64,000 bases of DNA. Origin: Mobula birostris. Its lineage: Eukaryota. The notes under the pieces were generated by a model that saw only the letters and a program-made list of their open reading frames with translations, ran no database searches and was not told where the DNA came from. Below, piece after piece: positions 10,279 to 52,609 of the stretch (positions are counted from its first letter, which is position 1; the number at the start of each line of letters is the position of its first letter). The position numbers and the translations under genes were made by a program. The stretch covers positions 182,731,487 to 182,795,486 of the forward strand of contig NC_092374.1 of the NCBI RefSeq assembly GCF_030028105.1, written 5' to 3'.

Positions 10279-11679
10279 AAAATTAACTCCCTAAGGGGGC
10301 AGAGGAGGCTGCAGCTGCTGGAAACTGGAGCAACGAACAATCCTCTGAAGGAGCTTGGTGGTATGAGCAGTGTCTTTAGGCGGAAAGGGAACTGTCAATG
10401 TTTCAGGACAAAACCCTGCATCAGGACTGGTAGATAATTCCCACTGGTGAGTTTTACGAGGGCTCCTTGGCTGCACAGTTAGTGACATATTTGAATAACA
10501 TCAGTCAATCCACTGCACTTTGTAATTCAATTTATTATCCAGTTGAGACTGTAAAAAATGGCCCTGGCAGAAACTAGAGCATCAGTGGGCAGATCTTCAT
10601 TATCTTCATATGTACATCGAAACATTCAGTAAAATGCGGCATTTGTGTTAATGACCAATACAGTCCGAGTATGTGCTGTGTTGTCATGCTTCTGGCACCG
10701 ATGCCCACAACTTACAAACCTTAACCTGAACATCCTTGAAATGTGGGAGGAAACTGGGGCAGCCTGAGAAACCCACATGGTCACGGGGAGAACACAAAAC
10801 TCCTCACAGACAATGGCAGGAATTGAATCCGGTTTGCTTGCATTATACTAATCACAGTGCTAGTGCTTGCTGCCAGCGGAAAGGTTGGTGCAATGATTTA
10901 CAAATAACTTGATTAAAAAATTAATTTTTGGGGGCTCTACATGCCGAGTTATCCCATTACCCAGTGCTCCTGGTGTCTCTGCTCCAGGAGCTGCCAGTAT
11001 CAGCTGATCTTCTACCCATTTCTGGTGTTGCCCAGCGCTTATGGCTCTGTCTGACACTCCTAGTGGTCACATCCGGGTCTGTCTATCTGGGTGACTGGGA
11101 ATTTTGGTGTTGTGTGCCCAAATCTTTGAGCTCCTAGAGCCCACCACTTCCAGATTCTGTCACTTCCACAGCATGCCATTCCTGGTGTCCATCACTCCCA
11201 GAGTCTGCCACTGTTGGTGTCTAACATTCCCAGCGTCCTCAACTCCCAAACACGGTGATCTCCTTACCCCAGACTTCCACTGCCCATACTTCTGGTGTCC
11301 ACCCATCCCAGTACATTGGACTCCAAGGCAATTCACACTGCCTGTCACTTGTGGTTATGTGGGCTCCCAGTGCCTTCTGCTCCAAGTCCGGGAATCCCCA
11401 GTGCTGAGAGTTTTCCTTACCCCTCCCAATGTCCTGGTGAGCAGGATTCCCAAAGCTCAGACAGGGTCTCAGAGAGCCCCAGTGTTGGGGCCTCTGTTAT
11501 CTATTGCTTATGGAGCCCAGCAGTCTAGATCTCGACCTGTCCCTCTCAGTGCCCTGGGATTCTTGGATGCGTAGACTCCCAGTGTCTGCCGCTCCTGGAG
11601 TCTCAGTGCCTGGACCTCCCGCTCATATCCAGGACCCTTGGTTTCCGGGACTCCTAGTGCTGGAGGCTGCTGTCATCCG

Positions 11680-12230
11680 ACGTTCCCAGTACCCGGGATT
11701 CCCGGAGCCCAGTCTGGGTCTCCGATTCCAGGGGCTCCTAGTAACCGTTACTTGGCCCCGCACACCGTCCCGTGGATTGGATCCCCTCCCGTGACTCCTG
11801 CAGTTCGCTCTCCGGAACGGGACCCCCGCGGACCCGGACCTCGCCTCGCCAGGTTCTCCGGACACTCGGACCACCCGGATCTACTGCCGCTCTCCCGCTC
11901 GGTGCCGGCTGGGGGCGCTGCCCTGTCCTCCCGCTGCCCTAATTCGGAGCGGGAGCCTCGGCCGCCGCCAGGCGCAGCCTCCGCCTGCCGTGAGTATCTC
12001 AGGGCTCGCCGCCCCCTACCGCGAGTACCGCCCCGCCCGGTCCCTCCATCTCCCGCCGCCTCCTGAGGCCTGGACTGAAGCCTCGGTCTCTGGTAGCAGC
12101 CCTTGCCCGAGTTGTAGCACCGTGTGTGGGCCTGAGACCGGGCTGCTGGTCGCGGCTTAACAGGCCCGGTCCTCCGCTCCCCTTCCCCGGGCACTGCCGG
12201 AAGGAATCACCGTGGGCCAGAGCGACTCTC
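11680..12230 (+). promoter_or_regulatory. CpG island / probable promoter and non-coding first exon of the ZBTB22-like gene
   Basis: CpG-dense and GC-rich. Inverted CCAAT (GATTGG, 11775), CTCF-like CCGGCTGGGGGCGCT (~11905-11919), GC box CCCCGCCC (12031), ETS CCGGAAG (12197), splice donor GCC|GTGAGT at 11990. Confidence 0.65.
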
Positions 12231-12284
12231 TAGGGGCTGAGGATGACAGAGGCCGGGAGAGAGATGGAGGGATGATTAGGTTTA

Positions 12285-15498: not shown

Positions 15499-16074
15499 AT
15501 GGAGGCAGGAAGCAATGTGCTGTACGTAGAGTTTCCCAACTTCGGTAACAACCTGCTGGAGAGCCTGAACCAGCAGCGGATGGAGGGCAAGTTCTGCGAC
15601 ATCTCCATCCACGTGCAGGGCAAGGTGTTCAAGGCTCACCGGGCGGTGCTGGCCGCCTCCTCGCCCTACTTCCACGACCAGGTGCTGTTCCGCAATGCCA
15701 GCCGCCTGGTGCTGCCGGGAGTGATGGACTCGCGAGCCTTTGAGAGCATCCTGGCTTCCTGCTACGCCGGCCGGCTGGCAGTGCTGCCGGCCGACATCGT
15801 CAGCTACCTGACGGTGGGGAGCTTCCTGCAGATGTGGCACGTGGTGGACAAGTGCACGGAGCTGCTGCGGGAGAGCCAGCCGCCGACGCCTGCCCCCACC
15901 CCCAGCTGCCAGCGCCCCTGCCGCCCCGCCGACAGCCAGTCGCCCAGCAGCAGCAACTACTTCAGCCCCCGGGAGGCGGCAGAGGCCAGGCCCGAGGCTG
16001 AGGAGGTGACCATTAAGGTGGACGAGGGGGCGGAGGGAGGGGAGGAGGAGGAGGAAGATGAGGACGAGGAGGAG
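15499..16074 (+). CDS. ZBTB22: ZBTB22-like BTB-zinc finger protein, coding exon 1 (BTB/POZ domain and start of acidic linker)
   Basis: Strong Kozak gccATGg at 15499 after a pyrimidine tract and tcgCAG/CAG acceptor (15484-15489). BTB signature LLESLNQQR..CDISIHVQG..FKAHRAVLAASSPYFHDQ..ADIVSYLTVGSFLQMWHVVDKCTELLRE and motif QSPSSSNYFSPRE recalled from ZBTB22. Phase-0 donor GAG|GTAGGT at 16075. Confidence 0.85.
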
Positions 16075-16129
16075 GTAGGTGGTACGGGGAACAGAGAGGG
16101 GACCTATGGCACGCCGTCTGTTCCAAAGT

Positions 16130-17100
16130 AAACCAGCTGCATATGATCCCTATCCTTCCTTACCTGGTGTATTCCTGTGTGTCTGTCTAATAAATGCCTC
16201 TGCCACATCTGCTTCCACTGCCACCTCTAGCAGTACATTCCACGCACCCGCCTCCCTCTGTGTATAAACCTGCTCCGCACATCTCCTTTGAACCCCTCCC
16301 TCCCCCACCTTAATCCTATGCTCCCTAGTGCCTGATATCTACTGTAGGAAAAAGAGTCTAACCATGTCCCTCATCTCAGCCTCTTGTAATTTTATAAACT
16401 TCCTATTACATCTCCCCTCAGGTTCCAATGCTTTAGAGAAAACAATCCAGTTTGTTGGACCTCTCTTTCTAGCTTACAATGCAGTCAGCATCCTGGTAAA
16501 CCTCCTAGAACACAATGTAGGCAGCATCTTGGAAAAACCTCTTTCTGGCACACGATGGAGGCTGCATCTTGGTAATCCTTTTCTGCACCTTTCCACAGAC
16601 TCCATATCCTTCGTATAATGGGGCAAACCAGAATTACAGTCAGAAATCCCAAGTGCATCCTAACCAAGGTTTTGTACGACTTCCTGACTCTTATACTTTA
16701 AGCCCCTAGTGATGAAGGCAAGCATGCCATTTGGCTTCTTTACCACTCTGTCTACTTGTGCCACCATTTTCAGGGAAATATGGATTTGGACAGCAAGATT
16801 CCTCAGTACAACAATGCTGTGCAGCATCCTGCCATCAACTGTATAATTTCCCCTTATATTTGACCTCCCAGCGTTCAACAGTTCACTGTTGCCTGGATTA
16901 AACCCCATCTGCTATTTCTCCACACATAACAGTTCTATATCCTTTCACGACCTTTATCACTGCCCACAGCTCCACTCATTTTTGTGTCATCTGCGGACAT
17001 GCTAATCAATCCGTCTACATTTTGCCCAAGACACAAACAACAGAGCACTGATCTCCGCAGAACACTAGTCGCGGATCTCCAGTCAGAATAACAGGCTTGT
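16130..17100 (-). mobile_element. Degenerate CR1 filling the coding intron of gene 1
   Basis: ORF 16660..16908 (QVDRVVKK.NGMLAFI.RGL.YKSQEV) is CR1 ORF2 C-terminus; CR1 3'UTR-like sequence near 16140-16330. Confidence 0.8.
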
Positions 17101-17341
17101 TAATTTTGCACTCAACCTTCTTGATCCTTGTGCTCAAACTTTTCAACTCTTGTGCTTAAATTTTCTGATCATAGCACTCCAACCTCTGTGCTCTCTGTTG
17201 CTAATTGTGCTCTTGCTTGTATAATTTTGTACTGTTTACGTTCTTTGTGTGACTGTTGTCGCTGATGTGAAAGGTCTGTGATGCTGCTGCAAGTTGAGTT
17301 TCTCGTTGGCATGACTTGACTTTGACTTCCTTACACCGCAG

Positions 17342-18199
17342 GTGGAGGATGAAGAGGAGGAGGAGGATGAGGCGGACAAGGCCAAGGAGCTGGAGCAGAA
17401 GGTCACCAGCAACCAGGGGGCGGAGGGGACGGGGGAAGGAGGCTTGGCTGACAGCCTCTTCCAGCCACCGGCGTACACCCCGGCGGGCCCAGCGCAAGCA
17501 CCGCCCTCGCGCTGGGTCCTGGTCAAGAAGGAGAAGCCGGAGGAGGACCTGGTGCTGACCTGTGAGGAGGATGAGCACCATTTTGTGAAGACGGCGGGCT
17601 GCCGGCGGGCCGAGCCCCAGCCGCTCAGCATCAGCGACGTCTGCACCCTGGCCGGGCCCGAGCTGCTGGCGGCCGCCGAGGAGCCGTCCTTCGAGGAGCC
17701 AGGCGACCTGTGCGGCTCCTCTGAGGAGTTCACCTACGAAGGAACGGACGGGGGCAGCCCCCGGGGCGGAGGAGGAGACGGAGGCGGTGGCGGCGGAGGA
17801 GGAGGAGGTGGCGGTGGTGGCTGCTGCCCGCGGCCGGGCGCCGGGGGCCCACCCGGGGGCTGCTGGCCGCAGGGCGACACTCGGCACGGTGCGGCTGGGG
17901 GCGGAGCGGGAGCGGGGGCCGGTGGCAAGATGTTCGCCTGTCACTGCGGCAAGGCGTTCACCCACCGGAGCCAACGGGACCGGCACATCAACATGCACCT
18001 CAACCTGCGGCCCTTCGGCTGCACCATCTGCGGCAAGAAGTTCAAGATGAAGCACCACCTGGTGGAGCACATGAAGATCCACACCGGCCTCAAGCCCTTC
18101 GAGTGCCACGTCTGCGGCAAGAAGTTCATGTGGCGGGACAGTTTCCTGCGGCACCGGGCCGCCTGTGAGAAGCTACAGCGGGCCACTGCCCTCCCGTAA
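17342..18199 (+). CDS. ZBTB22: ZBTB22-like protein, coding exon 2 (linker, poly-Gly, three C-terminal zinc fingers)
   Basis: Acceptor ttccttacaccgcAG|GTG at 17341/17342 keeps frame with exon 1 (477 aa total). Motifs EDLVLTCEEDE and LSISDVCTL; fingers CHCGKAF..HINMH-LNLRPFGCTIC..HMKIH-TGLKPFECHVC..HRAAC; TAA at 18197-18199. Confidence 0.85.
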   Translation: MEDEEEEEDEADKAKELEQKVTSNQGAEGTGEGGLADSLFQPPAYTPAGPAQAPPSRWVLVKKEKPEEDLVLTCEEDEHHFVKTAGCRRAEPQPLSISDVCTLAGPELLAAAEEPSFEEPGDLCGSSEEFTYEGTDGGSPRGGGGDGGGGGGGGGGGGGGCCPRPGAGGPPGGCWPQGDTRHGAAGGGAGAGAGGKMFACHCGKAFTHRSQRDRHINMHLNLRPFGCTICGKKFKMKHHLVEHMKIHTGLKPFECHVCGKKFMWRDSFLRHRAACEKLQRATALP

Positions 18200-26028: not shown

Positions 26029-29000
26029 TTAAGAGTAGGTAATGGAGGCAGCAGTTAGGGCAGTTGAGTGCTCCGTTTGCAGTATGTGGGAAGTCAGGGC
26101 AAGCACAATTGTCCCTGATGACTACACCTGCAAAAGGTGAATCCAGCTGCAGCTCCTGACAAACCGAGTTAGGGAACTAGAGCCGGAGCTGGATGAACTT
26201 CGGATCATTTGGGAGGCAGGGGCAGAAATAAACAAGAGTTACAGGGAGATAGTCACCCCTAAGAGTCAGGAGACAGGTAGCTGGGTGACTGTCAGGAGAG
26301 GGAAGGGGAATAGACAGGAAGAGCAGAGCACCCCTGTGGCTGTTCCCACCAATAATAAGTATATCATTTTGGATACTGTTGTTGGGGACAACCTACCAGG
26401 AACAAGCTGCAGTGGCTGCATCTCTGGCACTGAGACTGGACCCTCAGCTCAGAAGGGAAGGAGGGAAAAGAGGAGAGCAGTAGTGATAGGGGATTTGATA
26501 GTTGGGGGACAGATAAAGAGGTTCTGTGGAAGAGATCGAGAATCCCGGATGGTCTGTTGCCTCCCTGGTGCTAAGGTCCACCATATCTCGGATCGAGTTC
26601 TCAGTATTCACAAGAGGGAGGGTGAGCAGCCAGATGTAGTGGTCCATGTAGGGATCAATGACATGGGTAGGAAGAGTGAGGAGGTCCTGAAAGGTGAGTT
26701 TAGGGAGTTAGGCGCCAAGTTAAAGGACAGGACCTCTAGGATATCAATCTCAGGATTGCTACCAGTGCCACGTGCAGGCGGGTTTAGAAATAGTAAGATA
26801 GCGCAGATCAACACATGGCTGAAGACATGGTGCAGGAGGGAGGGCTTCAGATTTATAGATAATTGGGCAGTTTTCCAGGGAAGGTGGGACTTGTTCCGGC
26901 AGGATGGTTTACATCTGAACTGGAGGGGGACAAATATTCTTGCAGGTAGGTTTGCTAGAGAGGCTTCAGTGGATTTAAACTAGATACAAGGGGGGAGGGG
27001 AACCAGAGTGTAGGAGCAGATGTAGGGGAGAAGGAAGAAAAAGGAGATAGTACAGTTGTTTGCACCGTCAGTGATAAACAGAGTAAGAGGTGGAAAGTTT
27101 CTTAAATGCATTTATTTTAATGCTAACAGCATTGTAAGAAAGGTGGATGAGCTTAGAGCATGGATTGATACCTGGAAGTATGATGTTGTAGCTATTAGTG
27201 AAACATGGTTGCAGGAGGGGTGTGATTAGCACCTAAATATTCCTGGATTTTGTTGCTTCAGATGTGATAGAATCGAAGGGACAAGAGGGGGAGGTGTTGC
27301 ACTGCTTGTCAGAGAAAATATTACAGCAGTGCTCTGGCAGGATAGATTAGAGGGCTCCTCTAGGGAGGCTATTTGGGTGGAATTGAGGAATGGGAAAGGT
27401 GTAGTAACACTTATAGGGGTGTATTATAGACCACCTAATAGGGAGCGATAATTGGAGGAGCAAATTTGTAAGGAGATAGTGGATATCTGTAGTAAGCACA
27501 AGGTTGTCATTGTGGGAGATTTTAATTTTCCACACATAGACTGGGAAACCCATACTGTAAAAGGGCTGGATGGTTTGGAGTTTGTAAAATGTGTGCAGGA
27601 TAGGTTTTTGCAGCAATACATAGAGGTACCAACTAGAGAAGGGGCAGTGTTGGATCTCCTGCTAGGGAATGAGATAGGTCAGGTGACGGAGGTATGTGTT
27701 GGGGAGCACTTTGGGTCCAGTGATCACAATGCCATTAGTTTCAATATAATTATGGAGAAGGATATGTCTGGACCCTGGGTTGAGATCTTTGATTGGAGAA
27801 AGGCTAACTTTAAGGAGATGCGAAAGGATTTAGAAGGAGTGGATTGGGACAAACTGGTTTATGGAAAGGATATAGTAGAGAAATGGAGGTCATTTAAAAG
27901 TGAAATTTTGAGGGTACAGAATACTTATGTTCCTGTTAGGTTGAAAGGAAAGGTTAAAAGTTTGAGGGAGCCATGGTTTTCAGGGGATATTGGAAACTTG
28001 GTTTGGTAAAAGAGAGATATCTACAAAAAATATTGGCAGCATGGAGTAAATGAGGTGCTCGAAGAATATAAAGAATGTAAAAAGAATCTTAAGAAAGAAA
28101 TTAGAAAAGCTAAAAGAAGATACAAGGTTGCTTTGGCAAGTAAGGTGAAAATAAATCCAAAGGGTTTCTACAGTTACATTAATAGTAAAAGGATAGTGAG
28201 GGATAAAATTGGTCCCTTAGAGAATCAGAGTGGACAGCTAGGTGTGGAACCAAAAGAGATGGGGGAGATTTTGAACAATTTTTCTTCGGTATTCACTAAG
28301 AAGAAGGATATTGAATTGTGTAAGGTAAGGGAAACAGGTAGGGAAGTTATGGAAATTATGATGATTAAAGAAGAGGAAGTATTGGCGCTTTTAAGTGGAT
28401 AAGTCTCCGGGTCCTGACAGGACCTAGGACCTTGAGGGAAGTTAGTGTGGAAATAGCAGGGGCTCTGACAGAAATATTTCAAATGTCATGAGAAACAGGG
28501 ATGGTGCTGGAGGATTGGTGTATTGCTCATGTTGTTCCATTGTTTAAAAAGGGTTCTAAGAGTAAACCTAGCAATTATCGGCCTGTAAGTTTGATGTCAG
28601 TGGTGGGTAAATTAATGGAAAGTATTCTTAGAGATGGTATATATAATTATCTGGATAGACAGGGTCTGATTAGGAACAGTCAACATAGATTTGTGTATGG
28701 AAGTCATGTTTGACAAATCTTGTTGAATTTTTTGAAGAGGTTACTAGGAAAGTTGACAAGGGTAAAGCGATGGATGTTGTCTACATTGACTTCAGTAAGG
28801 CCTTTGACAAGGTTCCACACAGAAGGTTAGTTAGGAAGGTTCAATCATTAGGTATTAATATTGAAGTACTAAAATGGATTCAACAGTGGCTGGATGGGAG
28901 ACGCCAAAGAGTGGTGGTGGATAACTGTTTGTCAGGTTGGAGGCCAGTGACTAGTGGTGTGCCTCAGGGATCTGTACTGGGTCCAATGTTGTTTGTTATA

Positions 29001-29140: not shown

Positions 29141-32100
29141 CGGTACCACCACTCTGCTCCGTCTAGCGGAATTAGTCCTTACTCTTAATAATTTCTCCTT
29201 GGCTCCTCCCACTTCCTCCAAACTAAAGGTGTAGCTATGGGCACCCGTATGGGTCCTAGCTATGCCTGCCTTTTTGTTGGCTTTGTGGAACAATCTGTGT
29301 TCCAAACCTATTCTGGTATCTGTCCCCTACTTTTGCTTCGATACATTAAGACTGCTTTGGCGCTGCTTCCTGCACACATGCTGAGCTCGTTGACTTCATT
29401 AACTTTGCCTCCAACTTTCACCCTGCCCTCAAGTTTACCTGGTCCATTTCCGACACTTCCCTCCCCTTTCTAGATCTTTCTGTCTCTATCTCTGGAGACA
29501 GCTTATCTACTGATGTCTACTATAAGCCTACTGACTCTCACAGCTATCTGGACTATTCCTCTTCTCACCCTGTCTCTTGCAAAAATGCCATCCCCTTCTC
29601 GCAATTCCTCCATCTCCGCCGCATCTGCTCTCAGGATGACGCTTTTCATTCCAGGACGAGGGAGATGTCCTCCTTTTTTAAAGAAAGGGGTTTCCCTTCC
29701 TCCACCATCAACTCTGCTCTCAAACGCATCTCCCCCATTTCAAGCATATCTGCTCTCACTCCATCCTCCCGCCACCCCACTAGGAATAGAGTTCCCCTGG
29801 TCCTCACCTACCACCCCACCAGCCTCCAGGTCCAACATATTATTCTCCGTAACTTCCGCCACCTCCAACGGGATCCCACCACGAAGCACATCTTTCCCTC
29901 CCCTCCCCCCCCCCCCCGCTTTCCACAGGGATCGCTCCCTACGTGACTCCCTTGTCCATTCGTCCCCCCCATCCATTCCCACTGATCTCCTTCCTGGCAC
30001 TTATCCTTGTAAGCGGACCAAGTGCCACACATGCCCTTACACTTCCTCTCTTACCACCATTCAGGGCCCCAGACAGTCCTTCCAGGTGAGGCGACACTTC
30101 ACCTGAGTCGGCTGGGGTGATATACTGCGTCCAGTGCTCCCGATGTGGCCTTCTATATATTAGCGAGACCCGACGCAGACTGGGAGGTCGTTTTGCTGAA
30201 CACCTACGCTCTGTCCGCCTGAGAAAGCAGGATCTCTCAGTGGCCACACATTTTAATCCCACATCCCATTCCCATTCTGATATGTCTATCCACGGCCTCC
30301 TCTGCTGTAAAGTTGAAGCCACACTCAGGTTGGAGGAACAACACCTTATATTCCATCTGAGTAGCCTCCAACCTGATGGCATGAACATTGACTTCTCTAA
30401 CTTCTGCTAATGCCCCACCTCCCCCTCGTACCCCATCCGTTATTTATTTATATACACACATTCTTTCTCTCGCTCTCCTTTTTCTCCCTCTGACTATACC
30501 CATAGAAACCATAGAAACTACAGCACAGAAACAGGCCTTTTGGCCCTTCTTGGCTGTGCTGAACCATTTTCTGCCTAGTCCCACTGACCTGCACACGGAC
30601 CATATCCCTCCATACACTTCCCATCCATGTATCTGTCCTATTTATTCTTAAACGTTAAAAAAGAACCCACATTTACCACCTCGTCTGGCAGCTCATTCCA
30701 TACTCCCACCACTCTCTGTGTGAAGAAGCCCCCCATAATGTTCCCTTTAAACTTTTCCTCCCTCACCCTTAACCCATGTCCTCTGGTTTTTTTCTCCCCT
30801 TGCCTCAGTGGAAAAAGCCTGCTTGCATTCACTCTATCTATACCCATCATAATTTTATATACCTCTATCAAATCTCCCCTCATTCTTCTAAACTCCAGTG
30901 AATAAAGTCCTAACCTATTCAACCTTTCTCTGTAACTGAGTTTCTCAAGTCCCGGCAACATCCTTGTAAACCTTCTCTACACTCTTTCAACCTTATTTAT
31001 ATCCTTCCTGTAATTTGGTGACCAAAACTGAACACAATACTCCAGATTCGGCCTCACCAATGCCTTATACAACCTCATCATAACATTCCAGCTCTTATAC
31101 TCAATACTTTGATTAATAAAGGCCAATGTAGCAAAAGCTCTCTTTACGACCCTATCTACCTGTGACGACACTTTTAGGGAATTTTGTATCTGTATTCCCA
31201 GATCCCTCTGTTCCACTGCACTCCTCAGTGCCTTACCATTAACCCTGTATGTTCTATGTTGTTTTGTCCTTCCAACGTGCAATACCTCACACTTGTCAGT
31301 ATTAAACTGCATCTGCCATTTTTCAGCCCATTTTTCCAGCTGGTCCAAGTCCCTCTGCAGGCTCTGAAAACCTTCCTCACTGTCTACTACACCTCCAATC
31401 TTTGTATCATCAGCAAACTTGCTGATCCAATTTACCACATTATCATCCAGATCATTGATATAGATGACAAATAACAATGGACCCAGCACTGATCCCTGTG
31501 GCACACCACTAGTCACTGGCCTCCACTCAGAGAAGCAATTCTCTACTACCACTCTCTGGCTTCTTCCATTGAGCCAATGTCTAATCCAATTTACCACCTC
31601 TCCATGTATACCTAGCAACTGAATTTTCCTAACTAACTTCCCATGCGGGACCTTGTCAAAGGCCTTACTGAAGTCCATGTAGAAAATATCCACTGCCTTC
31701 CCTTCATCCACTTTCCTGGTAACCTCCTCGAAAAACTCCAACAGATTGGTCAAACATGACCTACCACGCACAAAGCCATGTTGACTCTCCCTAATAAGCC
31801 CCTGTCTATCCAAATGCTTGTAGATTCTGTCTCTTAGTACTCCCTCCAATAACTTACCTACTACTGACGTTAAACTCACCGGCCTATAATTTCCCGGATT
31901 ACTTTTCGATCCTTTTTTAAACAACAGAACAACATGAACCACTCTCCCATCCTCCGGCACTTCACCCGTAGACAGCGACATTTTAAATATTCCTGCCAGT
32001 GCCCCCGCAATTTCAACACTAGTCTCCTTCAAGGTCCGAGGGAACACTCTGTCAGGTCCCGGGGATTCATCCACTTTAATTTTCCTCAAGACAGCAAGCA

Positions 32101-38665: not shown

Positions 38666-40219
38666 CACATTGGAGTGAAAGGAATTACAGAGGCATGAGA
38701 GAGGAGCAGGCCAAAGTTGATTGGAAAGGGTCACTAGTAGGTTTAGTAGGCAAAGGAGAAGGAGAGGTGACTTGACAGAGGTGTATAAAATCAATAGGCA
38801 GCCAGTACTGTTTTCCCAGAGTGGAAATGGCAGATACAAGAGGGCGTAATTTTAAGGTAATTGGAGGAAAGTGTTGGGGGGGGGGGGGGAATGTCAAAGG
38901 TACAGATAGAACTTGCTGCCTGGGGTGGTGGTAAAAGTAGGGACATTTAGGAGGCTCTTAGATAGGCATATGGAAGAATGAAAAATGAATGGCGTTATAT
39001 TGATCTTGATTAGGTTAAAAGGTCGGTATAACATCATGGGCCGATAGGCCTGTATTGTGCTGTACTATTTTCTATGAGCCATGCAGTGCGGCATTAACAC
39101 CCAGCTACATCCCGGATGGGAAACATTGCTACCAATCTATTTTAACGCTTTATGATATCACAGGAGCACAGCACATGACATCACAAGGCAAGTGGACTAA
39201 CTACACGCCATGCACTTCTCAAATCAGCAGGATCAAAGTGGCCATGGTTGCAACAAGGGGTTGCAGGGAGACTAAGGTAAAACATTTAAACTTAGCCAAG
39301 AATCCAGGAAAGAATTTAATCCCCTGAAGAGCTGATGGTTCAGTTGAAGATTGGATCAGGAAGATATTCCAATACTCAGTCTGGTTGATTTACGTCCATG
39401 AGGCTCGGCAGGATATGGCAGTAAATATGAACAGAGCCAACTTCACCTCACACTGACAAGATATCCAATTGCTTTGCAGTCAGAGTTCAGTGGCAACTAA
39501 GTAATACAGGAACTGGGCCCTGCAAACAGGTATTCACAAATGTAACTTCAATTGTAAATGAACACCATGTGCTAATTTTATGCACATTTAGTTTCTATTT
39601 CTGAATTGTGAACGATATAAAACTGTATGTCAGTTGTATGAGCTGTATGTCAGTCCTACACACCCATCCAGATGAAGGGTCCTGACCTAACATTTCCTTC
39701 CATAGATGCTGCATGACCTGATTTCCTCCAGTAGTTTTTTTTTTGCCTTATCCCCCTAGTATTGTGGAATTCAAAACAAAACATTGAAATAAGAACAAGA
39801 ATAAAAATTTAGCTGGGAAATTATTAAAAAGAAACCAATTTTGCCAAATTCCTCTCCAGGTTAGCTATCAATGGTAGCTAACAAAATTAATGGGTTTGAG
39901 TTTTACATGGCTTGCTACCTCAGCGACTTTATAGAGGGGAGAACACCTCAATGTGAATAATTGCTCTCTGGCAACCCAAACAGTTTCTTTCAAGCCAGTT
40001 TATTCTCCAAGTCCCTGGTCTCCCCTCCCTCCCCACGGCAAGGGCCGATCTCTTAACTTCAAAGACAAATTGCAACTTCCGACTGCAAAGGTGGTACCAT
40101 GCGGGGTTATCATGTGGTGTGTGGTAACAAGGCCTGCCTCAGATTACTTGATAAGTGTGCTCATTTAATACGCTAATGAACGGAAACTTTCCCTCAGCTA
40201 ATCACGTTCCAGTAGTATT

Positions 40220-41030
40220 GCAACGGGACGAGTCTCACTGCAGTTATTTACTTGATCCTCGAACCGGGGTGCAGGAACTGCAATATCAAATCCCGACACT
40301 AAGCCGGAGGCTGACGACGGGAGCCGAGATTTGCCGAGCAAAGCTCCGAGCCGGAGGCCGCCGAAGGGAGCCGAGTGTCGGGCCGAGATTTGCCGAGCAA
40401 AGCTCCGAGCCGGAGACTGCCGACGGGAGCCGAGTGCCGGGTCGGGATTTGCCGAGCAAGTTGAGTTCCGGGCCGGAGGCTGCCGACAGGAGCCGAACAC
40501 CGGGCTGCCATTCGCCTGGATGAAGAAGGTGGTGATAGTGCCGCAAGGCCTGAGCCGCCCTTAGAGCCGGGATAGCATCGCCGGATCCGTTGTCTGCCGC
40601 AGTGCGACCGACTCTGGAAATAGCCTCCTCCCCTCTCCTGTTGACCCTCTCCGAGCGCCGCGGGGAAGCAGGCCTCGGCCTCTCTACTGACAGCCTGGGC
40701 CTGGAGTAGGTGCGTAGTCCCAGAACGAGCAGACCGGCCGGCGGGTCTGTAACAATGCAGCGGTACTTTTTGCGAAGTGTAAGCCTAGCCCCTGGCTGTA
40801 GGGCAACTGAGAAAACGGGCATCCTGCAGCCCAGGCCTCGACTGACAGGACATAGCGGGGACTGCTGCGGACCTGCCCAGTGTTGGAGAGGCTGCTTGCC
40901 CGTACACTGTCGAGGGAGCGCCGCGCTGTGGGAGATAGGGACGGCGCTGAGGAAGCGCCGTGCAGTGGTGGGAGGGTGGGGGGTGGGAGGCGGTACTGAG
41001 GGAGCGCTGCTCTGGGAATGCTGGTGGTGT
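40220..41030 (+). promoter_or_regulatory. CpG island / probable promoter and non-coding first exon of the ZBTB43-like gene
   Basis: Only CpG island between gene 1 and gene 2. Donor TAG|GTGCGT at 40710 could splice to the acceptor at 51094. Confidence 0.6.
40303..40508. repeat. CpG-rich minisatellite, ~3.6 copies of a 47-63 bp unit
   Basis: Units start at 40303, 40350, 40409 and 40472; core GCCGGAGGCTGCCGACGGGAGCCGAG..ATTTGCCGAGCAA. Confidence 0.9.
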
Positions 41031-43149
41031 GGGAATGGTTATAAAAGTTGGGCAGAGCGTTGGCTGAAGAAATTTAATCATGACAAGTACAAGATGGGAA
41101 GTCAAGTGGGCTAAAGCGTTTACGTGAAATCGAAAAGCATTGATGAATGTTGATGGACAGAAATACCCGGGGTCCAAGTCCATAGTTCTTTGAAAGCAGA
41201 ATCACAAGTCGGTAGGGCGGTGAAGAAGGCATAAGGCATGTTTGCCTCCGTGGTTCAGGGCACAGAATAGAAACGTTCGAGATATAACACTGTAACTTAT
41301 AAAATTCTAGAAAGGGTGAAGAAATTCACCAGGATGTTGGCTGAATTAGAGGACTTCAGATATGGGAAGAGTTTAGATTGGCTGTGCTTGTTTTTCCTGG
41401 AGTGATGCAAATTGTTGGGTGACCTGACAGATTGTGACAAGCTAGATAGTCAGAACGATACTATTTTGTGGTAGTTAGTGAAATGCTTTACAGCACCAGT
41501 AATCATAGTTCAATTCCTGCTGTTGCGTGGAAGAAGCTTGCACGTTCTCCTTGCGAATGCGTATGTTTCCTCTGGGTGTTCCAGTTTCCTTCAAGGACAT
41601 AGAGCTTAAGGTTAGTAAGTTGTGGGCATGTTTTGTTGGCATTGGAAGCATTGTGACACATCGGGGCTGTCTGCAGCTTATCCTTGGATGTGTCAGTCTT
41701 TCACACAAATGACGCATTTCACTGTATGTTTTGACATTTCAATGTACATGTGACAAATAAAGCTAGTATTTAAACTTTTCCTCCCAATGAGGTATCAATA
41801 ACGAGATCTTGGGTTTAAGTTGAGGAAAGGGGTTTAAAAGAGATCTGAGGGTGTATGCTTTGTTTTACGTGGAGACTGGTTGATATCTGGGACGTGCAGG
41901 CAGAATAGGTGGTGGAATTGGATAAAGTTAGTATGTTTAAGAGGCTCAGGCAGACACATAAGTATGCAATGCATAGAAGGATATAGACGTGATGCTGACA
42001 AGTGAGATGAGTATAGATGAGCACAATGGTCAGTATTGATGTCGTGGGCCAAAGGACCTGTTTCCGTGCTCCATGACTTTTTGGGAGGCATCATCACACT
42101 GAGTGGGAGCAGTCACAGAGCTCCACCTCATGGAAACAGGCCCTTTAGCCCAACTTTTCCATGCTGACCAAGGTGCCTATTGCCTGTGCTTGGCCTATAT
42201 CCCTCTAAACCTCTCCTATCCACGTACCTGTCAAAATGTCTGTTACACTTTGTAATTGTTCCTGCCTCTACCACTTCCTCTGGCAGATGGTTGCTTTTGC
42301 CCACCATTGCTTGTGTGAAAAACTTCCCCTTGAAATCTCTCCTCTTCCACCTCAAATCGATGTCCCCCCCACACCCTGTGAAAAAAGCCAATAAGCATTC
42401 ACTCAACCATGCCCCTTGTGATTTTATGAACCTCTGTAATGTCACCCCTCAATTGTACTTCTTCCAAGGGGATGGTGGGGTGGATGGGTGAAAGTCATCC
42501 TATCCTGTCTCTCTTTATAACTCAAGCCCTCCCATTCTGGCCACATCTATGTCAATCTTTTCTGCACCAGATTATTTGCACAGTACCACTTACTTACTGT
42601 GTGTGGGAAGCTGTGGTGTGCTTATTTGGTATCCTTTACAAGAGTGAAAAAAAGCTTTGCTTAGTTGTTTATGAAGTGTTTCAAAATGCCTTATCATTGT
42701 GAAAGCTTCTTTAAGAATGCTTGATCTTCTATGGTTCACTAACTTTCTTCTGTCCCTTTCTAACTCAGAGATTTCAACAAGGTAATGGATACATAACTGG
42801 CAAAGAGCCATATTTTCCAGGATTTTGGGGAAAGAGCAGTTATGAATGGTCTAACTGGATATATTTTCTGGACAGCACTGCCCTGGGCCAATCTGTCTCA
42901 TATTTTTCATCAATAATTGTGTCATATCAAAAATGGGGATTTTTGTTGATAACTGTGCCTTGTTCAAATCCAATTAACCTCGTAAGATGATGACAAGATC
43001 TAGACAAAATCCAGTTGCAAGCAGGCAAATATTGCCTAATCACCTACCTGTAACATCTAACAATGATGTTGCCTTTGCGTTGACCTTACTGTCTGTATCC
43101 TGTGGGTCACCACCAATAGAAACTCAACTGGACCAGCCAATATAAATAC

Positions 43150-51121: not shown

Positions 51122-52609
51122 ATGGAGCCAGGGATGTTTCAGGTGGAGTTCCCCAACTTCGGCAACAACTTGCTGAGGAAGCTGAACCAGCAGCGAATGG
51201 AGGGCAAGCTGTGCGACATCACCATCCACCTCCAGGGGCAGATGTTCAAGGCACACCGGGCGGTGTTGGCCGCCTCCTCGCCCTACTTCCACGACCAGGT
51301 GCTCCTCAAGAATGCCAGTCGGATCGTCCTGCCTGGCGTGATGAGCCCCAAGGCCTTCGAGAGTGTGCTGGCCTCCTCCTACACCGGCAAGCTGACCATC
51401 CTGTCTCCAGAAATTGTCAGCTACTTGACGGTGGCCAGCTTCCTGCAGATGTGGCACGTGGTGGACAAGTGCACGGAGCTGCTGCAGGAGAGCCAGTCGC
51501 CGCCCGCGCCCAGCCACCAGGCTGTCAGCCAGAACCAGTCACCCAGCAGCAGCAACTACCTCAGCCCTTGGCACGGCCCCGAGGCTGGGGCCAATGTGCC
51601 GGCCAAGTTCGAGAGGCCCGAGGAGGATGATGTCAAGCAGGAAGACCACCACCACCACCATCGCCACCACCACCACCAGGAGGATGAGGACGAGGAGGTG
51701 GAAGAGGAGGAGGAGGAGGAGGAGGAAGAAGGTCATAAAGCTTCTCCGAACCGGGAGACGGAGCAGGACAATGTCATCAGCAACTCCGCTGAGCGGGACA
51801 AGTTTGGGGTGGAGGGCTGTGGCGGCGGGGGGTTAGGGGACGGTGCCGACTGCCCTTACCCTGCACCGGGCTTGACACCCCACAAACGCTGGGCGCTGGT
51901 GAAGCCCGGCAAATCAGAGGAGGGCAGTGAGGAGGAACGTCCCTTCCACCCGGCACCGGGCAGGAGGAAGAAGCAAGAGGTTACGGGGTTGGGGGCTGAG
52001 CATCATGAGGCCGGCCACTTCCCGGAGCACAACTCACTGGCCGAGGAGTATGACGAGTTTGCCGAGGACCCCGGCTATGATGAGCCCGTTGACTACTATG
52101 GCTCATCGGACGACTTCCACTTTGAGCGGGCGGTAGTGGGCGGAGGCGCCGGCGGTGGAGGTAGCCCGAATGGGGCGGTGCTGCCGGGCAGTGAAATCCA
52201 GGAGAATGGGGCGTACGGTGTGCTGGGCGAACCGGGACCCAGCTCCTGCCAGCCGCCTGCTGCCTCTGACTTCCCTGGTGGTGTCTACAAGCTCTACCCT
52301 TGCCAGTGCGGCAAGAGCTTCGCCCACAAGAGCCAGCGTGACCGGCACATGAGCATGCACCTGAACGTGCGACCCTTTGGCTGCCCCATCTGCAGCAAGA
52401 AGTTCAAGATGAAGCACCACCTGATGGGCCACATGAAGATCCACACCGGCCACAAGCCCTACGAGTGCCACTACTGCGGCAAGAAATTCATGTGGCGTGA
52501 CAGCTTCACCCGCCACCGCAACGCCTGCGCCAAGCTGTACCACGCTGCCGCTGCCCCCCTCCCGGACCTCGACCTTCCCTCCGACCTCAGTGGCGCAGCC
52601 GATCTCTGA
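51122..52609 (+). CDS. ZBTB43: ZBTB43-like BTB-zinc finger protein (ZBTB9/22/43 subfamily), single coding exon, 495 aa
   Basis: Acceptor ttcctgcctctcccAG|GT at 51094/51095, ATG at 51122. MEPG..VEFP..KLNQQR..LLKNASRIVLP..SSYTG..PEIVSYLTVASFLQMWHVVDKC BTB domain; VDYYGSS motif; fingers KLYPCQCGKSF.HKSQRDRHMSMHL as recalled from ZBTB43. Exact orthology (true ZBTB43 vs a paralogue) is not established. Confidence 0.85.
   Translation: MEPGMFQVEFPNFGNNLLRKLNQQRMEGKLCDITIHLQGQMFKAHRAVLAASSPYFHDQVLLKNASRIVLPGVMSPKAFESVLASSYTGKLTILSPEIVSYLTVASFLQMWHVVDKCTELLQESQSPPAPSHQAVSQNQSPSSSNYLSPWHGPEAGANVPAKFERPEEDDVKQEDHHHHHRHHHHQEDEDEEVEEEEEEEEEEGHKASPNRETEQDNVISNSAERDKFGVEGCGGGGLGDGADCPYPAPGLTPHKRWALVKPGKSEEGSEEERPFHPAPGRRKKQEVTGLGAEHHEAGHFPEHNSLAEEYDEFAEDPGYDEPVDYYGSSDDFHFERAVVGGGAGGGGSPNGAVLPGSEIQENGAYGVLGEPGPSSCQPPAASDFPGGVYKLYPCQCGKSFAHKSQRDRHMSMHLNVRPFGCPICSKKFKMKHHLMGHMKIHTGHKPYECHYCGKKFMWRDSFTRHRNACAKLYHAAAAPLPDLDLPSDLSGAADL

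What the first reader, a model, noticed from the sequence alone, without database searches (positions are those of the whole stretch)
16075..17341. Apparently gained, repeat-built intron at an AG|GT site in the poly-Glu linker of the ZBTB22-like gene
Seen: a 1267-bp phase-0 intron splits the acidic tract (..EDEDEEE|VEDEEEE..), while the tandem paralogue has a similar tract uninterrupted (GATGAGGACGAGGAG GTGGAAGAG, ~51684-51707). Both junctions read AG|GT (GAG|GTAGGTGG .. CAG|GTGG), so AGGT is duplicated. The intron is mostly antisense CR1, and its branch-point region (CTTGACTTTGACTT) looks like a retroelement tail. Known: mammalian ZBTB9/22/43 have a single coding exon, and intron gains are rare in vertebrates. 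Inference: a lineage-specific intron gain by insertion at a proto-splice site. The alignment lies in low-complexity sequence, so positional homology is not certain.
Basis: partly seen in the sequence, partly recalled or inferred. Interest (0 to 1): 0.7.

Follow-up and report, generated by a model that had tools for sequence, protein, structure and literature searches.

The report
Repeat-filled gained intron in ray ZBTB22
A ray's ZBTB22-like gene has its coding sequence split by a 1.3-kb intron made mostly of two old retrotransposon pieces and shared with other rays; it was likely gained within cartilaginous fishes, and the tail of one piece likely now serves as its branch point.

Summary
The intron is real: 16075-17341, 1,267 nt, phase 0, AG|GT at both ends. 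Removing it gives a 477-aa BTB-zinc-finger protein whose junction matches two stingray RefSeq proteins. It is not species-specific. Contigs from three other organisms carry it joined to exon 2, the most distant about 8% diverged and probably a dasyatid. It is absent from the paralogues zbtb43-like, zbtb43 and zbtb34 in this genome and from the matching region of teleost zbtb22b, and cat ZBTB22 has no room for it. So a gain within cartilaginous fishes is likely (0.8). Skate, shark and chimaera gene structures could not be seen, so the branch is open. About 75% of the intron is an antisense CR1-type LINE. The TTGAC tail at the predicted branch point belongs to a second, sense-strand LINE whose AATAAA is deleted here. 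The AGGT repeat is only 4 nt and is weak evidence. The 'tandem paralogue' is an ancient ZBTB43-clade gene. Creation by transposon is unproven. Teleost zbtb22 carries three other introns at AG|G sites. Verdict: new member of a known kind, modest interest.

The parts
15499..16074 (+). zbtb22-like coding exon A (BTB domain to first half of the acidic tract, 192 codons)
16075..17341 (+). phase-0 GT-AG intron, 1,267 nt
   Evidence: orthologous intron contigs joined to exon 2 in three other organisms
16072..16080 (+). donor GAG|GTAGGT
16129..16131 (+). in-frame stop reached if the intron is retained (210-aa BTB-only product)
16137..17099 (-). 5'-truncated RT-bearing LINE, antisense (CR1-type; clade label recalled). 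Its 3' end faces the donor. Relaxed hits reach 16100; extension to the donor is not significant (p about 0.09)
17100..17190 (.). unassigned stretch with short imperfect internal repeats; one match in the genome (itself)
17192..17329 (+). 3' UTR and (CTTTGA)n tail of a second, sense-strand LINE (Rex1/Babar-like, label recalled); about 40 nt including AATAAA missing before the tail
17316..17341 (+). predicted branch adenosines 17319 and 17325 (inside the LINE tail), pyrimidine tract (17 of 24 nt) and CAG acceptor
   Evidence: motif match only
17342..18199 (+). coding exon B (second half of the acidic tract to C2H2 fingers and stop)
51122..52609 (+). zbtb43-like paralogue, single coding exon (496 codons with stop), acidic tract unbroken at 51683-51706

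Best explanation
The ray zbtb22-like coding sequence is split by a GT-AG intron at a Glu|Val (GAG|GTG) site; the intron was likely gained within cartilaginous fishes, is shared by several rays, and likely uses the TTGAC tail of a sense-strand LINE as its branch point. Shown: the intron, its phase, its two LINE pieces, its presence in three other organisms, and its absence from paralogues and from teleost zbtb22b. Inferred: precise splicing (from the open joined frame and matching RefSeq proteins); the gain (by parsimony); and the history. In that history a short intron arose at the proto-splice site in the indel-tolerant acidic linker, then took in an antisense CR1-type LINE and, probably later, a sense LINE 12 nt before the AG. 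The sense LINE was tolerated because its tail reads as a branch point and its poly(A) signal was lost. The protein is unchanged, so the intron is probably neutral.
For: Open 477-aa joined frame, same junction in P0010 and P0216. Intron-to-exon-2 contigs in 3 of 4 runs laid (4 of 24 listed): organism B 16894-17520 with 4 differences; D 17276-17520 with 11; E 16782-17387 with 47 differences and 31 gap letters, plus E 16084-16262 with 14. E carries the Gln-to-His change seen in the Hemitrygon protein. Unbroken frames in zbtb43-like, zbtb43 (473 of 473 residues) and zbtb34-like. Teleost zbtb22b runs unbroken from NYFSP through its acidic tract in genomic locus L049, and through the RKQW motif in 3 of 5 Logan ORFs printed (the other 2 break at SSYQ, downstream of the ray site). 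Cat ZBTB22 spans 1,695 nt (PMC2453318 Table 1). Tail family: 28 matches to 17080-17341 including itself, profile E 8e-22. Exact AATAAA in 12 of 32 aligned copies and a near match in 26 of 32, none in the window copy. All five teleost zbtb22 junctions read at DNA level also fit CAG|GT or AG|GT.
Against: No skate, sawfish, shark or chimaera gene structure was available, so the branch is unplaced between the base of Chondrichthyes and the common ancestor of organisms A and E. The quick tree leaves the chondrichthyan 22-like clade unresolved against bony-fish ZBTB22 (the careful search did not finish), and DAXX lies 25 Mb away on the same contig, so orthology rests on shared linker motifs. The linker cannot be aligned base by base to bony vertebrates. 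The branch points are motif matches only, and organism D has changed the upstream one (17316 T>A). The order of the two insertions comes from rough distances on selected copies. The non-repeat remainder is under about 175 nt, which fits a LINE-born intron equally well.
Confidence: 0.6

Rival explanations
1. The antisense CR1-type LINE itself created the intron: it inserted into the exon's AGGT, the duplicated target gave donor and acceptor, and its antisense strand gave the pyrimidine tract. The sense LINE came later.
For: The LINE's 3' end faces the donor, with significant match from 16137 (62 nt in) and relaxed hits to 16100. It fills about 75% of the intron and looks the older of the two (nearest copy JC 0.26 against 0.19). 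AGGT sits at both ends. The mechanism is described in PMC3443670 (passages), with vertebrate cases in notothenioid slc26a2 (PMC12357937 passages).
Against: 16075-16130 against nine independent LINE 3' ends scores p = 0.087 against dinucleotide shuffles and p = 0.35 against random window segments. The repeat is only 4 nt, with no longer target duplication. About 100 unassigned nt and the second LINE lie between the element and the AG. 8 of 44 control chunks are as repeat-rich.
Confidence: 0.22
2. The intron is ancestral to jawed vertebrates or to the gene family and was lost in bony vertebrates and in the paralogues.
For: The repeats inside are 2-5 times more diverged from sampled family copies than the intron is between organisms A and E, so the intron is old. 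Shark and chimaera states are unknown.
Against: It needs separate losses in bony-vertebrate ZBTB22, the ZBTB43/43-like clade and ZBTB34. Teleost zbtb22 shows gains elsewhere rather than a retained intron here.
Confidence: 0.08
3. The intron arose by tandem duplication or slippage of the Glu-codon tract containing AGGT, or by intronisation of linker sequence; the copy then decayed and filled with repeats.
For: GAG tracts are slippage-prone and tract length varies across elasmobranchs. This mechanism has in vivo support (PMC3443670 passages). The first 28 intron bases are purine-rich.
Against: Intron start against exon-2 start p = 0.70; intron end against exon-1 end p = 0.54. The ray linker has lost no residues against sharks. 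Age could have erased the trace.
Confidence: 0.1

Closest known systems
Lineage-specific intron gains at proto-splice sites in ray-finned fishes (slc26a1/a2, PMC12357937 passages; MC receptors PMC3151243 and serpins PMC2746811, search listing and abstract start only)
   Same: A new GT-AG intron in a coding region unbroken in other vertebrates; exon flanks fit AG|G.
   Different: Here the host is a cartilaginous fish, the lineage with the fewest intron changes in PMC3964593 (passages, elephant shark only), and the gain is dated only by a lower bound.
Transposon-insertion introns (Yenerall and Zhou review PMC3443670; notothenioid slc26a2 introns 3 and 5)
   Same: The intron is nearly all retroelement and has AGGT at both junctions.
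   Different: Two unrelated old LINE pieces in opposite orientation, no target duplication beyond 4 nt, and no significant match between element end and splice site.
Teleost zbtb22a/b introns (seen here)
   Same: Same gene family, phase 0, CAG|G or AG|GT context.
   Different: Other positions: FHDQ|V in the BTB domain, SSYQ| and Q|VDYCQ in the linker. All three sites are unbroken in the ray gene.
Exaptation of retroelement sequence as splice signals (for example Alu tails giving 3' splice sites; recalled)
   Same: A retroelement end supplies the predicted 3' splicing signal.
   Different: A sense-strand LINE microsatellite tail giving a branch motif for a constitutive intron, not exonisation.

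Membership tests
Spliceosomal U2-type intron | GT...AG ends, consensus-like donor, branch motif and pyrimidine tract | tested here: met
Spliceosomal U2-type intron | Removal restores a frame that matches orthologous proteins | tested here: met
Spliceosomal U2-type intron | Transcripts join the two exons | tested here: inconclusive
   could not show the joint either way
Gained intron | Absent from paralogues | tested here: met
   zbtb43-like, zbtb43 and zbtb34-like frames unbroken
Gained intron | Absent from bony-vertebrate orthologues | tested here: met
   teleost L049 and Logan ORFs; cat span 1,695 nt; gar, coelacanth and bichir DNA not seen
Gained intron | Absent from skates, sharks or chimaera (fixes the branch) | not testable with these tools
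   only proteins held; no DNA found; supplement gene spans of 23-33 kb are uninformative
Transposon-insertion intron | Element ends coincide with the splice sites | tested here: inconclusive
   CR1-type match begins 25-62 nt from the donor (p = 0.087 for the gap); second LINE tail ends 12 nt before the AG
Transposon-insertion intron | Target-site duplication containing the AG|GT | tested here: inconclusive
   only AGGT is repeated, which any such intron would show
Tandem-duplication intron | Intron ends resemble the flanking exons | tested here: not met
   p = 0.70 and 0.54
ZBTB22 orthologue | Groups with bony-vertebrate ZBTB22 and lies in the MHC-linked block | tested here: inconclusive
   chondrichthyan clade support 99 but unresolved against ZBTB22; shared linker motifs; DAXX on the same contig 25 Mb away
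Rex1/Babar LINE | RT phylogeny or repeat-library match | not testable with these tools
   Pfam gave no relevant hit on 4 fragments of L079; label recalled from the C-terminal peptide; a conserved 3' UTR plus oligonucleotide tail fits PMC6274825 (passage)

The most novel reading that the evidence does not exclude
A CR1 LINE inserted into the AGGT of a poly-Glu exon in an early batoid and became a perfectly spliced intron. A second LINE then rebuilt its 3' end, its microsatellite tail becoming the branch point and its poly(A) signal being purged. This would be an intron built from retrotransposons at both ends in the vertebrate lineage with the least intron turnover, in a gene that ray-finned fishes invaded independently three more times.
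Probability: 0.2. Interest if true: 0.65.

Novelty: new member of a known kind. Interest (0 to 1): 0.36.

Why it matters
Reported vertebrate intron gains come mostly from teleosts, and the elephant shark shows the fewest changes (PMC3964593). A gain in a ray lineage would be a clean presence/absence character for batoid or elasmobranch phylogeny, and a test of whether LINE-rich shark and ray genomes make introns. With the three teleost introns, zbtb22 becomes a compact case of repeated gain at AG|G sites. The protein is unchanged, so no new function is implied.

Tried and rejected
Junction reads: no RNA holder was listed on record (RNA labels are guesses), and none of the 4 runs covered the exon-1 side or the donor, so the joint was not seen. 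This is no evidence either way. One 172-nt contig in X11 has only 19 letters in exon 2 and does not count as bridging. Truncated exon-1 ORFs from cartilaginous fishes: none recognisable among 77 hits. Shark or skate DNA in metagenome contigs: 9 loci, two being teleost zbtb22 and seven unrelated zinc fingers. Genome contigs: 0 of 147 candidates. Gene spans in the supplement of PMC10751288 include UTR introns and are uninformative. A first CR1 profile from only 3 copies was too weak and was replaced. Tandem-duplication trace: not found. No longer target duplication at the junctions. Earlier scan findings: none in 3 look-ups. Literature searches listed no report of this intron; the library lacks most subscription papers, and bioRxiv supplements were not read. 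No structure or complex prediction was run, because the linker is low-complexity and the protein is unchanged.

Full report
Observation. The sequence shows GAG|GTAGGT at 16074/16075 and CCGCAG|GTGG at 17341/17342: 1,267 nt, phase 0. Joining the exons gives a 477-aa protein with a BTB domain and C2H2 fingers; without splicing the frame stops at 16129-31. The closest named proteins are from the stingrays Hemitrygon akajei (94% over exon 2) and Hypanus sabinus, and both read the same acidic junction. Splicing is inferred from this, not seen in reads.

Gene identity. In a quick maximum-likelihood tree of 35 proteins (the careful search did not finish), the gene falls in a chondrichthyan zbtb22-like clade (support 99) whose link to bony-vertebrate ZBTB22 is unresolved. 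The neighbour at 51122-52609 falls in a zbtb43-like clade that includes chimaera and is sister to ZBTB43 (100). Both genes share a contig length in Stegostoma, Heptranchias and Heterodontus. So the pair is at least as old as crown cartilaginous fishes, and the paralogue's Glu tract is no picture of the pre-insertion allele. DAXX lies on the same contig, 25 Mb away. TAPBP-DAXX-ZBTB22-KIFC1 order is conserved in fish and human (PMC1971071, passages).

Who has the intron. Of 24 runs listed, 4 were laid. Three, from three other organisms and three studies, have a contig running from intron into exon 2 with at least 31 letters each side: B (16894-17520, 4 differences), D (17276-17520, 11) and E (16782-17387, 47 differences and 31 gap letters). 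E also holds 16084-16262 at 92%, far above the 65-80% of paralogous repeat copies. E has the His codon found in the Hemitrygon protein where the window and Hypanus have Gln, so it is probably a dasyatid. The intron therefore predates the split between this ray and dasyatids.

Who lacks it. In this genome zbtb43 (473 of 473 residues in one frame), zbtb43-like and zbtb34-like have unbroken coding frames. Teleost host DNA in a metagenome (L049, zbtb22b) runs unbroken from the BTB domain through NYFSPR and an acidic tract with its own GAG|GTG to SSYQ. Of 5 Logan ORFs printed in full, 3 continue unbroken to the RKQW motif, which brackets the ray site however the linker is aligned; the other 2 end at SSYQ. 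Cat ZBTB22 spans 1,695 nt (PMC2453318, Table 1 row). For skates, sharks and chimaera only proteins were held. At the matching column they have Val, Leu or Ala, which suggests an ancestral GAG|GTG site but says nothing of an intron. Parsimony favours a gain on the chondrichthyan side (about 0.8), branch unknown.

What fills it. An RT-bearing LINE lies antisense over 16137-17099 (the CR1 label is recalled), 3' end toward the donor. The first 55 intron bases resemble that family's 3' end only weakly (p = 0.087). A second family lies in sense at 17192-17329 (profile E 8e-22). Its copies end in AATAAA followed by (CTTTGA)n, and upstream they encode a C-terminal peptide that I recall as Rex1/Babar-type; Pfam did not confirm this. 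In the window copy about 40 nt including AATAAA are missing, whereas 12 of 32 aligned copies keep it exactly and 26 of 32 nearly (33 loci examined, one without a hit). The remaining tail holds two YTNAY motifs with adenosines 23 and 17 nt before the exon. Organism D has altered the first.

Age and cause. The nearest sampled family copies are JC 0.26 (CR1-type; 53 hits, median 0.43) and 0.19 (tail LINE; 26 hits, median 0.29) from the window copies, against 0.08-0.09 between organisms A and E. Only the best-scored candidates were fetched, so these are rough, but both insertions look 2-5 times older than that split, and the intron could reach back to all batoids or further. Repeat cover is 87% against a mean of 49% in 44 control chunks, 8 of which reach 80%; the library favours the intron. 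CR1-like LINEs sit in introns of most whale shark genes (bioRxiv 10.1101/443036, passages). The exact junction repeat is AGGT only, and there is no tandem-duplication trace. Phase-0 AG|GT occurs at 6 of 476 codon boundaries in the gene, which fits a proto-splice preference but not any one mechanism.

A wider pattern. Teleost zbtb22 has other introns: FHDQ|V in the BTB domain (89 nt in L048, 459 nt in L049, both CAG|GT...AG|GT), a donor after SSYQ in L049, and a site before VDYCQ. Of 17 fragments picked by hand from 77 hits, 9 break at SSYQ and 6 at the later site. All three sites are unbroken in the ray.

Comparison. Gains at proto-splice sites and by transposon insertion or tandem duplication are established kinds (PMC3443670, passages). 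Vertebrate examples are mostly in ray-finned fishes (PMC12357937, passages), and the elephant shark has the fewest changes (PMC3964593, passages). Searches listed no report of this intron. It is best filed as a new member of a known kind. Best reading: a probable chondrichthyan gain, later filled by LINEs, with a LINE tail as likely branch point (0.6). LINE-created intron 0.22; duplication or intronisation 0.10; ancestral intron 0.08. Interest 0.36.

Noticed in passing
L048:554-642; L049:1230-1688 and after about 2430; Logan ORFs P0144-P0212 and P0266-P0301: Teleost zbtb22a/b carry introns at FHDQ|V, SSYQ| (only some lineages) and Q|VDYCQ, all phase 0 in CAG|G context. A sturgeon model (P0156) joins FHDQ to VNFCESSED, hinting that two of them predate teleosts.
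   Followed up: partly
window 17300-17329: The sense LINE's AATAAA is deleted just upstream of the acceptor; this may reflect selection against intronic polyadenylation (single case).
   Followed up: partly
P0220 (Cetorhinus maximus, 1,266 aa): A RefSeq model fuses zbtb22-like, a translated GC-rich tandem repeat and zbtb43-like; probably an annotation artefact, but it confirms the tandem order in a shark.
   Followed up: no
window 51645-51679: The zbtb43-like linker has a His tract before the Glu tract that skate and shark orthologues lack.
   Followed up: no
window 26141-26983: LINE ORF1-like frame with a GDSL esterase domain (Pfam PF13472, E 1.6e-11).
   Followed up: partly
window 29350-30406: Frames that look like a Penelope-type retroelement (label recalled); no Pfam hit on the one frame scanned.
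   Followed up: partly
window 11575-12250 and 40155-41200: GC-rich islands upstream of each zbtb gene, probably promoters or first exons; the 5' UTR exon structure was not resolved.
   Followed up: no
G000:C6:208004234: DAXX is 25 Mb from zbtb22-like on a 210-Mb contig, so the tight DAXX-ZBTB22 linkage of bony vertebrates is not kept here.
   Followed up: partly
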